From IMG/VR virus record IMGVR_UViG_2541047948_000009: a DNA stretch of 45,296 nt, one strand, 5' to 3'. Under the pieces are notes generated by a model. The model had not been told where the DNA came from, ran no database searches, and saw only the letters and a program-made list of their open reading frames with translations. The DNA is from a virus. Lineage: Duplodnaviria; Heunggongvirae; Uroviricota; Caudoviricetes. Position 1 is the stretch's first letter; each line of letters opens with the position of its first letter. A program made the translations under genes and the position numbers. Of the stretch, positions 15,643 through 19,307 are shown piece by piece.

Positions 15643-15858
15643 ATGTCAAATAAAATGACTGGTTTAGTAAAATGGTTTAACGCTGATAAAGGTTTTGGCT
15701 TTATTTCTCCTGTTGATGGTAGTAAAGATGTGTTTGTGCATTTTTCTGCGATTCAGAATGATAATTTTCGAACCTTATTTGAAGGTCAAAAGGTTACCTT
15801 CTCTGTAGAGAGTGGTGCTAAAGGTCCTGCAGCAGCAAATGTCATAATTACTGATTAA
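15643..15858 (+). CDS. cspB: Cold-shock protein CspB-like
   Basis: 71 aa; [38 protein letters not shown] with RNP1/RNP2 motifs; long AT-rich 5' UTR typical of csp genes. Confidence 0.85.
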
Positions 15859-16221: not shown

Positions 16222-16392
16222 TCAAGCTACAGCTTTAAGATTTGTCTGGAATACTTTGTTGCAATGAGGGCAGATCAAAAGGGCACCTTTTTGTACTCTT
16301 GAAAAACTGTGTTCTGACTCTTGGGTGCAGTTTGGGCAGGAACATTTAACGAGATAATTACGGCGTGATTTTGAGTCTTTACGTTCTGACAT
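16222..16392 (-). CDS. Small zinc-ribbon protein (YnfU-like)
   Basis: Start at the internal ATG 16390-16392 (AGGAAAA RBS), 56 aa; CxCPxC ... CPHC arrangement. Confidence 0.45.
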   Translation of the reverse strand: MSERKDSKSRRNYLVKCSCPNCTQESEHSFSRVQKGALLICPHCNKVFQTNLKAVA

Positions 16393-16610
16393 AGGCTTTT
16401 CCTGTATAAATGGCCGTATACAGTACACTAAATATGAAAACATATCTCGTATTATTATTTAATATATGATTTTCTTTTAAAATAATTACCCACATTTTTA
16501 ATGTGTCTGTTTTTTAGCGCCGTTGAGAACAACGTTTGCTATAAAAACTAACCCATAGACTCCGATCTTTTCAAACATATTGCACCATCTGTGTACATCG
16601 GGGTGAGGAT

Positions 16611-16826
16611 ATGAAATCAATGGATAAGTTAACAACAGGTATCGCCTATGGCACATCGGCTGGTAATGCTGGTTTCTGGGCATTGCAGTTACTCGATAAA
16701 GTAACTCCGTCACAGTGGGCTGCAATCGGTGTGCTGGGTAGTCTGGTTTTTGGCCTGCTGACGTATCTGACAAACCTTTATTTCAAGATTAAAGAAGACA
16801 GGCGTAAGGTTGCGAGAAGAGAGTAA
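16611..16826 (+). CDS. Class II pinholin (phage 21 S21-like) with dual-start motif
   Basis: 71 aa; [26 protein letters not shown]...[15 protein letters not shown] closely matches the recalled S21 sequence; Met1/Met4 dual start. Confidence 0.85.
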
Positions 16827-16830
16827 TCCA

Positions 16831-17382
16831 ATGACACAAGACTATGAACTGGTTGTGAAAGGAGTCCGCAATTTTGAGAATAAAGTGGCGGTAACTGTAG
16901 CCTTACGGGACAAAAAACGCTTTGACGGTGAAATTTTTGACCTGGACATCTCGCTGGACCGTGTTGAAGGTGCCGCGCTGGAGTTTTATGAGGCAGCAGC
17001 CAGAATGAGAATCAGACAGGTATTCCTGGATGTTGCTGCCGGGTTATGTGTAGGGGATGAGCAGTCGCCGGAAAAGCGCCCCATAATTTTAGAGGCGCAG
17101 AATGTGTGGATAACCTACAAAGGAAAGCTACCGGGAAGAATTACTGGTTCTCTGAAGACGCCACCGACGGCATTGCGGTCAGAAAAAGATGATATTGAAT
17201 CGCCCATTGAAAAACTGGAGGGCAGCGTCGCTGATCTGAATAAAAAATTGTCGGTGCTGATCCCTTCTGAAGATGAAAAAAAACGCCGCGATGAGCAGTT
17301 TGCGGCGTTTTACGATTATTGCATTGAAGTTACTCGCAGGAATTTTGTGAAGATTTTTGAGGAGGGTAAATCTCTTCAGTAA
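16831..17382 (+). CDS. Hypothetical protein inserted between holin and endolysin
   Basis: ORF in late-operon orientation; start placed at ATG 16831 (track start 16810); charged, helical composition; no recognised family. Confidence 0.45.
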   Translation: MTQDYELVVKGVRNFENKVAVTVALRDKKRFDGEIFDLDISLDRVEGAALEFYEAAARMRIRQVFLDVAAGLCVGDEQSPEKRPIILEAQNVWITYKGKLPGRITGSLKTPPTALRSEKDDIESPIEKLEGSVADLNKKLSVLIPSEDEKKRRDEQFAAFYDYCIEVTRRNFVKIFEEGKSLQ

Positions 17383-17590
17383 GCTTAATGGCGGACGCTG
17401 CAATTAATTCAGGAAGGTCCGCAAGGTCATCTGTCAGTGGATATGATGAAAAATCGGCGGCAGTTCTGTTAAGAAGCGCTTTAACTAATTCCTTTTCCTT
17501 CTCCGGCAACAAGTTGATTAGAGCTACGACTGCTTGCCTGAGTGCGATTAAATCAGCAAAAGTTTGTTTTGGTAGATTTGTGTAATCCAT
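17330..17590 (-). CDS. Hypothetical acidic protein, convergent with and overlapping the 3' end of the preceding gene
   Basis: 86 aa from ATG 17588-17590 with AGAGGTG RBS; protein-like composition; 53-nt 3' overlap with 16831..17382. Confidence 0.4.
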   Translation of the reverse strand: MDYTNLPKQTFADLIALRQAVVALINLLPEKEKELVKALLNRTAADFSSYPLTDDLADLPELIAASAIKLTEEIYPPQKSSQNSCE

Positions 17591-17703
17591 AGTCACCTCT
17601 GTGTTTATCAGATTGACATCCTCCTCCCGCCAGTGCCCATCACTGGTGAGGTAAGATTTAACATATCCGGGGATTTGAAGCCGATAAATCCTGATAAATA
17701 TCC

Positions 17704-18731
<1,028 letters not shown>

Positions 18732-19091: not shown

Positions 19092-19307
19092 ATGATGTCT
19101 AACAAAATGACTGGTTTAGTGAAATGGTTTAACCCTGAAAAAGGTTTTGGTTTCATCACGCCGAAAGATGGTAGCAAAGATGTGTTTGTGCATTTCTCAG
19201 CTATTCAGAGCAACGATTTCAAAACGTTAACTGAGAATCAGGAAGTCGAATTTGGTATTGAGAACGGACCTAAAGGCCCTGCAGCTGTTCATGTAGTGGC
19301 ACTTTGA
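19092..19307 (+). CDS. cspI: Cold-shock protein CspI-like
   Basis: [70 protein letters not shown] matches the recalled CspI sequence. Confidence 0.85.

What the first reader, a model, noticed from the sequence alone, without database searches (positions are those of the whole stretch)
16831..17590. Convergent two-gene insertion splitting the pinholin-endolysin pair
In phage-21-type lysis cassettes the pinholin and SAR endolysin genes are normally adjacent. Here about 880 bp lie between them, holding a 183-aa gene in late orientation and an 86-aa acidic gene on the opposite strand whose 3' ends overlap by 53 nt. Convergent overlap allows mutual antisense regulation, and the minus-strand gene has its own RBS, so it could be expressed in the lysogen. 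Neither protein is recognisable to me; this is a moron slot that could hold a toxin/antitoxin-like or exclusion pair, or a lysis-timing regulator.
Basis: partly seen in the sequence, partly recalled or inferred. Interest (0 to 1): 0.55.

Follow-up and report, generated by a model that had tools for sequence, protein, structure and literature searches.

The report
Antisense moron inside phage lysis cassette
Between a prophage's hole-forming and wall-degrading lysis genes lies the common YdfR gene with an extra tail, plus a small backward-facing gene with its own promoter-like box and terminator. Together the tail and that gene form a mobile, uncharacterised add-on module, not a recognisable toxin-antitoxin pair.

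Summary
An S21-type pinholin (16611-16826) and a SAR endolysin (17704-18237) are separated by 877 bp. That gap holds a 183-aa + strand ORF (16831-17382) and an 86-aa - strand ORF (17330-17590), which overlap by 53 nt.

The interpretation needs revising. The + gene is recognisable: it belongs to the YdfR/DUF1327 family, the usual occupant of this slot (about 80% of complete E. coli genomes carry its N-domain DNA). The variable part is a roughly 490-bp cassette, present in about 6% of genomes. It consists of a helical C-terminal tail fused in frame to YdfR, plus the antisense gene ORF-B.

ORF-B looks like a real gene. It has homologues at 40-57% identity, dN/dS of 0.2-0.36, a Shine-Dalgarno site, an intrinsic terminator (hairpin plus U8) lying inside the YdfR tail coding sequence, and an invariant upstream block with -35/-10-like hexamers.

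The same tail/ORF-B pair, with the same convergent overlap, occurs after Rz in Salmonella prophages and attached to other N-domains. The same upstream block precedes two unrelated small antisense ORFs in other coliphages.

Best reading: a moron-type antisense transcription unit, possibly coupled functionally to the tail. No homology supports a toxin-antitoxin or defence role. Protein function is unknown. Interest is moderate.

The parts
16611..16826 (+). S21-type class II holin (pinholin), with the MKSM dual-start motif
   Evidence: Pfam PF04971, E=7.3e-34; phrog holin. Sequence.
16831..17166 (+). ORF-A N-domain (aa 1-112): the YdfR/DUF1327 domain, the resident gene of this slot
   Evidence: Pfam PF07041, 140.8 bits (cut-off 25), aa 1-112. 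AF2 gives a beta-beta-beta-helix fold over aa 5-73, pLDDT 65-86. This DNA is present in 4349 of 5426 E. coli genomes. K-12 YdfR binds the RNase E N-terminal domain (PMC13232886).
17167..17382 (+). ORF-A C-terminal tail (aa 113-183), predicted helical. It is the late-strand half of the mobile cassette; its last 18 codons, including the stop, overlap ORF-B.
   Evidence: Absent from the 103-116-aa YdfR forms and nearly invariant across different N-domain subtypes. Homologous free-standing or differently fused tails occur next to ORF-B homologues. The pre-hairpin part of partner tails in the Salmonella-type and third clades has pN/pS 0.22-0.39. AF2 predicts helices 123-143 and 147-181 at low pLDDT.
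17272..17311 (-). Intrinsic terminator of ORF-B. Hairpin at 17280-17311 (10-bp stem, 12-nt loop), followed on the minus strand by a U8 run of which four Us lie in the stem. It also folds on the + strand, so it may act in both directions. It encodes KKRRDEQFAAF of ORF-A.
   Evidence: strand folding: -14.6 kcal/mol, z=-3.6 on the minus strand; -18.7 kcal/mol, z=-3.25 on the plus strand. A hairpin of the same span is kept in the Salmonella clade and in clade 3, with one compensatory G-C to A-T change. The simple scan missed it because its loop limit is 3-8 nt.
17330..17590 (-). ORF-B: 86 aa, acidic, predicted three-helix protein (phrog_2572)
   Evidence: phrog_2572, E=1e-53, 86/86. Homologues at 40-57% identity. 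dN/dS 0.21-0.36 in the non-overlapping part. It is the only frame without stops in all 7 homologues. AF2 gives three helices, pLDDT 71.5.
17594..17599 (-). Shine-Dalgarno sequence GAGGTG of ORF-B
   Evidence: Read directly from the sequence. The other clades have AAGGAC at the equivalent place.
17660..17706 (-). Conserved leftward promoter-like block: ATGGATATTTATCAGGATTTATCGG (tandem ATTTATC, 10-bp period), -35-like TTTATC at 17688-17683, 17-nt spacer, -10-like TATGTT at 17665-17660. It abuts the endolysin ATG at 17704.
   Evidence: The 19-nt core is identical in all 20 loci fetched up to that call, including Salmonella-type and other contexts with no endolysin next to it. It occurs once in the window, against 0.02 expected. 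It also precedes unrelated cargo ORFs and occurs with no cargo. It is not picked up by the consensus promoter scan.
17704..18237 (+). SAR-type lysozyme (R21-like endolysin)
   Evidence: Pfam PF00959, E=2.6e-24; phrog_7 endolysin.
18234..18731 (+). Rz-like i-spanin (DUF2514), with an embedded Rz1-like lipoprotein ORF
   Evidence: Pfam PF10721, E=3.6e-38; phrog_312. The embedded ORF 18385-18681 has an LTSC lipobox.

Best explanation
The slot holds two things of different age.

(1) A resident late gene, ydfR (DUF1327 N-domain, aa 1-112). It is the normal occupant between S21-type holins and SAR lysozymes.

(2) A roughly 490-bp mobile cassette, about 17163-17654. On the late strand it adds a helical 71-aa tail in frame to YdfR. 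On the opposite strand it carries ORF-B as a self-contained transcription unit: a conserved promoter-like block, about 60 nt of 5' UTR, a Shine-Dalgarno site, an 86-aa acidic three-helix protein, and an intrinsic hairpin-U8 terminator that lies inside the tail coding sequence.

Inferred mechanism. ORF-B is a moron-type gene transcribed from its own weak sigma-70-like promoter when the late operon is silent, in lysogeny or early infection. Q-antiterminated late transcription reads through the embedded hairpin. By convergent collision, or by duplex formation with the fully complementary ORF-B mRNA, it then shuts ORF-B off.

Because ORF-B is always inherited with the tail, whatever the tail is fused to, the favoured sub-hypothesis (about 35-40%) is that the ORF-B protein binds or neutralises the tail of the late protein. 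That would gate the activity of a YdfR-type protein, which is reported to bind RNase E, until late transcription outruns ORF-B.

Shown here: the anatomy, the mobility, purifying selection, the terminator fold and the conservation of the block. Inferred only: promoter activity, timing of expression, the protein-protein link and any effect on lysis.
For: - ORF-A is a YdfR protein plus a tail.
- ORF-B family members at 40-57% identity always converge on a late-strand ORF with a 53- or 59-nt overlap. Partners are YdfR-183/176/211/243, a 144-aa non-DUF1327 protein, a 116-aa protein, and a free-standing 73-aa ORF after Rz in Salmonella-type prophages.
- Purifying selection acts on ORF-B: dN/dS 0.21-0.36, substitutions by codon position pos2 < pos1 < pos3, and no stops in any homologue.
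- Partner tails in the Salmonella-type and third clades also look selected: pN/pS 0.22-0.39.
- The terminator hairpin plus U8 folds well (z=-3.6). It is kept at the same place in all three clades, with one compensatory pair.
- The 19-nt core of the upstream block is 100% identical in all 20 loci fetched up to that call, although ORF-B synonymous sites are saturated (dS 1-2). That includes contexts without an adjacent endolysin.
- The same block heads unrelated cargo ORFs. In phage Chlobot its conservation ends just past the -10-like hexamer.
- Presence/absence polymorphism: 311 genomes against 4349.
- The module is carried by eight phage genome records, among them 2H10, PhiR63_1, PhiR5_1 and PhiR12.
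- Lower GC: 0.42 against 0.47-0.53 in neighbouring genes.
Against: - There is no transcript, TSS or proteomic evidence.
- The promoter-like hexamers are weak (TTTATC is 3/6, TATGTT is 4/6) and the consensus scan did not call them.
- In E. coli the block also abuts the endolysin start, so it could serve R expression as well.
- The wobble-aligned antisense shadow frame gives nearly the same pN/pS (0.52 against 0.46). Substitution ratios alone therefore do not fix the coding strand.
- The detectable similarity between partner tails coincides with the terminator hairpin DNA. Tail 'homology' may therefore be imposed at the nucleotide level.
- The tail is predicted only at pLDDT about 45.
- No ORF-B/tail complex could be modelled.
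- ORF-B has no informative sequence or fold relatives.
Confidence: 0.55

Rival explanations
1. ORF-B is an ordinary independent moron, a lysogen-expressed accessory protein acting on the host or on other phages. The YdfR tail has no functional link to it. The late-strand reading frame simply runs on through the moron's terminator and 3' end because the insertion landed in frame or was tolerated.
For: The only part of the partner tails that is detectably similar between clades coincides with the terminator hairpin and the overlap with ORF-B. The pre-hairpin parts are unrelated in sequence between clades. The same slot and promoter block host unrelated cargo with different or no YdfR extensions. 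The tail model has low confidence.
Against: In this antisense frame ORF-B carries 6-11 stops, read over its whole length. Yet the frame stays open through the hairpin and the 17-19 overlapping codons in all three diverged clades. It always extends upstream into a translated-looking ORF. In Salmonella that ORF has its own ATG abutting the Rz stop (TAAATG). Pre-hairpin pN/pS is 0.22-0.39. Indels in E. coli tails (a 7-aa deletion, a 28-aa insertion) all keep the frame to the same stop. No ORF-B locus without a tail ORF was found.
Confidence: 0.25
2. The effector is RNA. The conserved block fires an antisense transcript into the ydfR-R junction. That transcript pairs with the late lysis mRNA (in the manner of lambda OOP-cII) or interferes by convergent transcription, tuning endolysin or YdfR expression. 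The ORFs on it are secondary or dual-function.
For: What all variants share is the block and its orientation, not any protein: three unrelated cargo ORFs, plus a cargo-less O157 version in which the block points into the ydfR 3' end. The ORF-B transcript would be fully complementary to the late polycistronic mRNA and ends at a terminator inside ORF-A. YdfR itself is linked to RNase E and RNA binding.
Against: ORF-B keeps an intact ORF, a start codon and a Shine-Dalgarno site, and shows protein-level conservation at 40-57% identity with saturated synonymous sites. That is not expected for a purely non-coding RNA. There is no Rfam match. In Salmonella the unit lies after Rz, away from the R start.
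Confidence: 0.15
3. This is a toxin-antitoxin-like or abortive-infection/exclusion pair. The acidic ORF-B would be the antitoxin or sensor, and the long YdfR the toxin.
For: ORF-B is a small acidic helical protein (pI 4.3-4.8). The two genes are strictly co-inherited. The pair is variable in a prophage hotspot.
Against: Neither protein hits PADLOC, Pfam or NCBIfam toxin, antitoxin or defence models. The genes are convergent and belong to different transcription programmes, not an autoregulated operon. The partner's N-domain can be absent or replaced. Overproduction of K-12 YdfR changed only a few transcripts (PMC13232886). The module is carried by phages held as complete genome records.
Confidence: 0.07
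4. ORF-B is not a gene but a chance antisense ORF in an untranslated spacer.
For: The family is taxonomically narrow (Escherichia and Salmonella prophages). It is not annotated in phage 2H10. A long shadow ORF exists on the other strand.
Against: Homologues reach down to 40% identity with conserved length, start and Shine-Dalgarno site. dN/dS is 0.2-0.36. There are zero stops in 7 diverged copies, while the other five frames carry 2-11. A dedicated terminator and a conserved upstream block are present. PGAP and other pipelines call it.
Confidence: 0.05

Closest known systems
E. coli K-12 Qin prophage essQ-ydfR-rrrQ (YdfR, DUF1327/PF07041)
   Same: The same slot between an S21-type holin and a lysozyme, and the same N-terminal domain (141 bits). 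The K-12-type locus is shown. K-12 YdfR binds the RNase E catalytic half and co-purifies RNA (PMC13232886).
   Different: K-12 YdfR is 103 aa and overlaps the rrrQ start. It has no tail, no ORF-B and no antisense block. Here YdfR carries a 71-aa helical extension that hosts the terminator and 3' end of an antisense gene.
Lambda bor-type morons (autonomous promoter-gene-terminator units in the late region; concept of Juhala/Hendrix; from my own knowledge)
   Same: A small gene on the strand opposite to the late operon, next to the lysis genes. In Salmonella the ORF-B homologue sits just after Rz, as I recall bor does in lambda. It has its own terminator, is present or absent among related phages, and has slightly lower GC.
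   Different: ORF-B is a cytoplasmic acidic helical protein with no sequence relation to Bor. It is embedded inside the lysis cassette and is always paired with an overlapping late-strand ORF. Promoter activity and lysogenic expression are not shown.
Lambda OOP RNA / cII 3'-end antisense control (from my own knowledge)
   Same: A convergent transcript whose 3' part overlaps the 3' end of a coding region by about 50-60 nt and ends at an intrinsic terminator.
   Different: OOP is a short non-coding RNA. Here the antisense transcript encodes a conserved protein, and it is complementary to a polycistronic late mRNA over its whole length.
Stx2-converting phage 86 orf5/orf6 and phage Chlobot CDS0007/CDS0006
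   Same: The same slot, the same YdfR N-domain gene followed by a convergent small minus-strand ORF, and the same upstream block next to R.
   Different: The minus-strand proteins are unrelated (phrog_1853 and phrog_2411; BLASTP finds nothing). The YdfR C-termini differ (268 aa, 114 aa).

Membership tests
YdfR / DUF1327 (Pfam PF07041) | Significant match to the family HMM above the gathering score | tested here: met
   140.8 bits against a cut-off of 25, E=1.6e-41, aa 1-112 against profile positions 1-92 of 93. PGAP names homologues 'YdfR family protein'.
YdfR / DUF1327 (Pfam PF07041) | Position between a class II (S21-type) holin and the lysozyme of a lambdoid lysis cassette | tested here: met
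   Window order is holin-ORF-A-lysozyme-Rz. The K-12-type and O157 loci have the same order.
YdfR / DUF1327 (Pfam PF07041) | Binding to the RNase E N-terminal half (reported for K-12 YdfR residues 1-72) | not testable with these tools
   [not shown]
Moron (autonomous transcription unit inserted in a phage operon) | Own promoter | tested here: inconclusive
   An invariant block with TTTATC-17 nt-TATGTT lies upstream of ORF-B in every context and upstream of unrelated cargo. The hexamers are weak, the consensus scan is negative, and there are no TSS data.
Moron (autonomous transcription unit inserted in a phage operon) | Own factor-independent terminator | tested here: met
   Hairpin at 17280-17311 plus U8 on the minus strand, -14.6 kcal/mol, z=-3.6. 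The position is conserved, with one compensatory pair, in the other clades. This is prediction only; termination was not measured.
Moron (autonomous transcription unit inserted in a phage operon) | Present or absent between otherwise colinear relatives | tested here: met
   ORF-B is present in 311 of 5426 genomes, the ydfR N-domain in 4349. The O157 locus has the flanks without the cassette.
Moron (autonomous transcription unit inserted in a phage operon) | Expression from the repressed prophage | not testable with these tools
   Needs RNA-seq, TSS mapping or a reporter in a lysogen.
Type II toxin-antitoxin or known anti-phage defence system | Match to a known toxin, antitoxin or defence protein family | tested here: not met
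   PADLOC gives 0 hits at E<=1 for both proteins. Pfam and NCBIfam give none beyond DUF1327.
Type II toxin-antitoxin or known anti-phage defence system | Co-directional, co-transcribed two-gene operon | tested here: not met
   The genes are convergent with overlapping 3' ends in all contexts.
DUF1823 (annotation given to the ORF-B homologue in phages PhiR5_1 and PhiR12) | Match to PF08853 above the gathering score | tested here: not met
   Best E=0.024. The window protein scores 13.2 bits against a cut-off of 25, and only 5 of 11 family members give any hit.
Holin / antiholin / spanin-type lysis accessory protein | Transmembrane domain, signal sequence or lipobox | tested here: not met
   ORF-B is acidic (net charge -5.5) with three amphipathic helices and no uninterrupted hydrophobic stretch. 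This rests on inspection of the sequence and the AF2 model. No dedicated TM predictor was run.
cis-antisense RNA regulator (lambda OOP-like) | Convergent transcript overlapping the target's 3' end and ending at an intrinsic terminator | tested here: met
   Geometry only: the ORF-B unit ends at the hairpin inside ORF-A.
cis-antisense RNA regulator (lambda OOP-like) | Regulatory effect exerted by the RNA, not by a protein | not testable with these tools
   ORF-B shows protein-level selection, which argues that it is at least not purely non-coding. There is no Rfam match.

The most novel reading that the evidence does not exclude
S21-type lysis cassettes may contain a conserved antisense 'docking' promoter just upstream of the endolysin gene, expressing interchangeable small ORFs. 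One of these, ORF-B, would form with the co-transferred helical tail a two-component switch. ORF-B protein made in lysogeny or early infection would sequester the tail of the RNase E-binding late protein YdfR. Q-driven convergent transcription would then silence ORF-B and release YdfR, coupling RNA decay or late-mRNA stability to lysis timing.
Probability: 0.15. Interest if true: 0.7.

Novelty: new member of a known kind. Interest (0 to 1): 0.4.

Why it matters
YdfR is among the most widespread prophage genes of unknown role in E. coli. It sits in the middle of the lysis cassette and has only just been linked to RNase E. This work shows that a subset of YdfR proteins carry a transferable tail that is physically interlocked with an antisense small gene. 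It also shows that an invariant antisense promoter-like block in this position carries different small ORFs in different phages. That gives a concrete handle for asking what YdfR does and whether lysis cassettes are regulated from the opposite strand. On the practical side, it corrects annotation errors: long YdfR called a pseudogene, ORF-B missing or labelled DUF1823. It also flags a recurrent site where prophages carry accessory genes. If ORF-B is only another moron of unknown function, the value is mainly descriptive.

Tried and rejected
- **Defence or TA models.** PADLOC, Pfam and NCBIfam give nothing for ORF-B or the tail.
- **DUF1823 label.** Sub-threshold, rejected.
- **Rfam.** No credible RNA family.
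- **Consensus promoter/terminator scan.** It missed both features of interest: the hexamers are too weak and the loop is too long.
- **Homology among the three minus-strand cargo proteins** (ORF-B, Chlobot 90 aa, phage 86 orf6). BLASTP finds none, so they are treated as unrelated.
- **pN/pS as a strand discriminator.** The wobble-aligned shadow frame scores almost the same as the sense frame. I relied instead on ORF integrity, start codon and Shine-Dalgarno conservation, and the codon-position ranking.
- **PGAP 'pseudogene' flags on ydfR next to ORF-B.** These suggested decay of the partner, but direct translation shows intact ORFs in all three loci (183 aa in L003 and L005, a 171-aa in-frame variant in L004), so they are artefacts.
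- **Literature.** Nothing in the searchable library describes ORF-B, the tail or the block.
- **Sigma-28 and sigma-32-like readings of the block.** Considered by eye and dropped because the key bases are not conserved in Salmonella or the spacing is wrong.
Full report
**Observation**

The region reads exactly as described.
- A 71-aa P21-type holin lies at 16611-16826 (PF04971, E=7e-34). It is followed 4 nt later by a 183-aa ORF on the same strand, 16831-17382 (ORF-A).
- An 86-aa ORF lies on the minus strand at 17330-17590 (ORF-B), preceded by GAGGTG.
- The two ORFs overlap at their 3' ends by 53 nt.
- A lysozyme with a SAR-like N-terminus follows at 17704-18237, then an Rz-like spanin at 18234-18731.
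- The distance from holin to lysozyme is 877 bp.

The window is a lambda-like prophage or phage. Across the lysis cassette (16611-18237) it is 99.4% identical to Escherichia phage 2H10 and 99.3% to PhiR63_1.

**What the + strand gene is**

ORF-A is not an orphan.
- Residues 1-112 match Pfam DUF1327 (YdfR) at 141 bits, against a cut-off of 25. The whole protein matches phrog_2091 end to end.
- ydfR is the gene that lies between essQ/essD-type holins and rrrQ in the K-12-type Qin arrangement (locus L021).
- DNA of this N-domain is found in 4349 of 5426 complete E. coli genomes.
- A gene between the pinholin and the SAR endolysin is therefore the rule in E. coli prophages. Direct adjacency is the DLP12/phage-21 state (H55-H60).

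The family comes in length classes of 103-116, 176, 183, 211, 243, 268 and 296 aa. They share the N-domain and differ downstream of '...SLKTPP'. The 176/183/211 forms share a nearly invariant C-terminus, 'KKRRDEQFAAFYDYCIEVTRRNFVKIFEEGKSLQ', on quite different N-domain subtypes. That is a mosaic pattern.

The only functional data I found are from a 2026 paper (PMC13232886). K-12 YdfR binds the catalytic N-terminal half of RNase E in two-hybrid and co-purification assays. Residues 1-72 suffice, and it co-purifies RNA. Overproduction changes few transcripts.

**Is ORF-B a gene?**

- It matches phrog_2572 over its full length, and PGAP annotates it as a hypothetical protein.
- Word-indexed and exhaustive HMMER searches find a small family. 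It comprises E. coli copies at 85-100% identity, and 89-93-aa homologues at 40-57% identity in Salmonella enterica and in metagenomic or Logan assemblies.
- Between these three clades, synonymous sites are saturated (dS 1-2). dN/dS in the part that overlaps nothing else is 0.21-0.36.
- The ORF-B frame is the only one of six without stops in all seven copies.
- Differences rank pos2 < pos1 < pos3.
- The start codon and a Shine-Dalgarno site are kept.

One caveat applies. The wobble-aligned shadow frame on the other strand, the 65-aa + ORF at 17388-17585, gives almost the same pN/pS by construction (0.52 against 0.46). The ratio alone therefore does not fix the strand.

AF2 predicts three helices (8-26, 30-48, 56-74; pLDDT 71.5). 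The proteins are acidic, pI 4.3-4.8. There is no relative in PDB, Pfam, NCBIfam or PADLOC. The 'DUF1823' label used for phages PhiR5_1 and PhiR12 is sub-threshold. I take ORF-B as a real protein gene, at about 90%.

**The unit that moves**

Every ORF-B homologue whose surroundings I could read converges on a late-strand ORF with a 53- or 59-nt overlap in the same relative frame. The partner, however, differs:
- YdfR-183 or -176 (window; 74 colinear IMG/VR or GTDB loci).
- YdfR-211 (PhiR5_1).
- YdfR-243 (L017, L018).
- A 144-aa protein without DUF1327, downstream of a Q antiterminator gene (L016).
- A 116-aa protein (L020).
- A free-standing 73-aa ORF directly after Rz and before the terminase genes, in Salmonella prophages and related contigs.

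The cassette is therefore [late-strand helical tail + antisense ORF-B]. In this window it is fused in frame to the resident ydfR. Comparison with an O157 prophage that lacks it puts its limits at about 17163 and 17654. It is present in 311 of 5426 complete E. coli genomes and in 8 of 50,697 phage records. Among GTDB species representatives it is found only in E. coli.

**Terminator inside a coding sequence**

Eighteen nucleotides past the ORF-B stop, the minus strand forms a 10-bp hairpin with a 12-nt loop (17311-17280). It runs into eight U's (-14.6 kcal/mol, z=-3.6). It also folds on the + strand (-18.7 kcal/mol). On the + strand this DNA encodes 'KKRRDEQFAAF' of ORF-A.

A hairpin of the same 28-nt span sits at the same place in the Salmonella clade (AACGCCGC/GCGGCGTT) and in the third clade (AACGCCACC/GGTGGCGTT). 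The third clade shows one compensatory G-C to A-T change and one extra pair.

This has two consequences. First, ORF-B has its own intrinsic terminator, which the simple scan missed because of its loop limit. Second, the only BLAST-detectable similarity between partner tails (E=2e-4) coincides with this hairpin, so it may be imposed at the nucleotide level.

The tails nevertheless look translated:
- The frame stays open through the hairpin and the overlap in all clades. The same antisense frame carries 6-11 stops when ORF-B is read over its whole length.
- The Salmonella ORF has its own ATG abutting the Rz stop.
- Indels in the E. coli tails keep the frame.
- Pre-hairpin pN/pS in the Salmonella-type and third clades is 0.22-0.39, on small counts.

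**A conserved antisense block**

Upstream of ORF-B, the sequence ATGGATATTTATCAGGATTTATCGG contains tandem ATTTATC at a 10-bp period. Seventeen nucleotides after its TTTATC comes TATGTT (TATTGT in Salmonella).
- The 19-nt core is 100% identical in all 20 loci fetched up to that call, despite saturated synonymous divergence of the adjacent gene.
- It occurs once in the window, against 0.02 expected.
- In E. coli it abuts the endolysin ATG. In Salmonella and in L016 there is no endolysin beside it, so it is under selection as part of the antisense unit.
- The same block precedes two unrelated minus-strand ORFs: phrog_2411 in phage Chlobot and phrog_1853 (orf6) in Stx2 phage 86. It also stands alone in an O157 prophage.
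- In Chlobot, similarity stops just after the -10-like hexamer.

This is what a shared leftward promoter with exchangeable cargo would look like. However, the hexamers are weak (3/6 and 4/6), the consensus scan does not call them, and I have no TSS data. Promoter function is therefore inferred.

**Mechanism**

The anatomy fits a moron: promoter-like block, Shine-Dalgarno site, ORF, terminator, presence/absence polymorphism and slightly lower GC (0.42 against 0.47-0.53). It lies antisense in the late operon, as lambda bor does after Rz (from my own knowledge).

From established lambda biology, Q-modified polymerase reads through intrinsic terminators, so the embedded hairpin need not block late expression of R and Rz. 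The convergent late transcription and the full complementarity of the two RNAs should turn ORF-B off once the late operon fires.

ORF-B always travels with the tail, whatever the tail is attached to. I therefore favour, at about 35-40%, a direct functional link: ORF-B protein binding the tail of the late protein. The alternatives are as follows.
- The tail is merely tolerated read-through (0.25).
- The RNA is the real effector (0.15).
- The pair is a toxin-antitoxin or exclusion system (0.07). That has no homology support, the gene arrangement is wrong for it, and the module is carried by phages held as complete genome records.
- ORF-B is spurious (0.05).

**Comparison and novelty**

ORF-A is a member of the YdfR family. 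ORF-B is a member of an uncharacterised phage family. The unit behaves like a moron. What I did not find described is threefold:
- the tail/ORF-B interlock,
- its relocation between lysis-cassette positions in E. coli and Salmonella,
- the invariant antisense block carrying different small ORFs.

I file it as a new member of a known kind, of moderate interest. The YdfR N-domain is near-universal but has no known lysis role, and the tail plus ORF-B is variable.

Noticed in passing
L003:2221-2772, L004:991-1506, L005:949-1500: PGAP marks the long ydfR next to ORF-B as 'incomplete, missing C-terminus' pseudogenes. Direct translation shows intact 183-aa ORFs in L003 and L005, and a 171-aa in-frame variant in L004. 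The flags are probably an artefact of a short family model.
   Followed up: yes
L007:1531-1803 (-) and L006:1941-2255 (-): Phage Chlobot (90 aa, phrog_2411) and Stx2 phage 86 orf6 (104 aa, phrog_1853) carry unrelated small minus-strand ORFs at the same place. Both lie behind the identical ATATTTATCAGGATTTATC block and convergent with ydfR.
   Followed up: partly
L022:793-842: In an O157:H7 prophage the antisense promoter-like block is kept in a 50-nt ydfR-lysozyme spacer with no cargo ORF. It would fire into the 3' end of ydfR and could give a short antisense RNA.
   Followed up: no
window 17388-17585 (+): A 65-aa ORF rich in Ser, Ala and Arg is the wobble-aligned antisense shadow of ORF-B. 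It is open in the E. coli copies and broken in Salmonella L009. It is very likely not a gene.
   Followed up: yes
window 16611-16622: The holin starts MKSM, which looks like the dual-start (antiholin/holin) motif I recall from S21.
   Followed up: no
window 18385-18681 (+): An Rz1-like ORF is embedded in the +1 frame of the Rz gene, with a lipobox (LIVLTSC). This gives the usual embedded spanin pair.
   Followed up: no
window 15643-15858 (+), 19092-19307 (+), 16222-16443 (-): Two 71-aa cold-shock protein (Csp) paralogues flank the lysis cassette. A 73-aa CxxC...CxxC ORF lies just upstream of the holin on the minus strand, where strain ML35 has ynfU annotated. The layout is Qin-like.
   Followed up: no
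L024:3038-3807: One IMG/VR copy has an insertion of about 770 bp in ydfR, flanked by a 9-bp duplication of the target. It looks like an IS element. ORF-B and the block are intact.
   Followed up: partly
[not shown]
   Followed up: partly
L016:970-1544: In one metagenomic contig the tail/ORF-B pair follows a DUF3927 small protein and a TerB-like ORF downstream of Q, with no recognisable S21 holin or YdfR domain. This is a third kind of insertion context.
   Followed up: no
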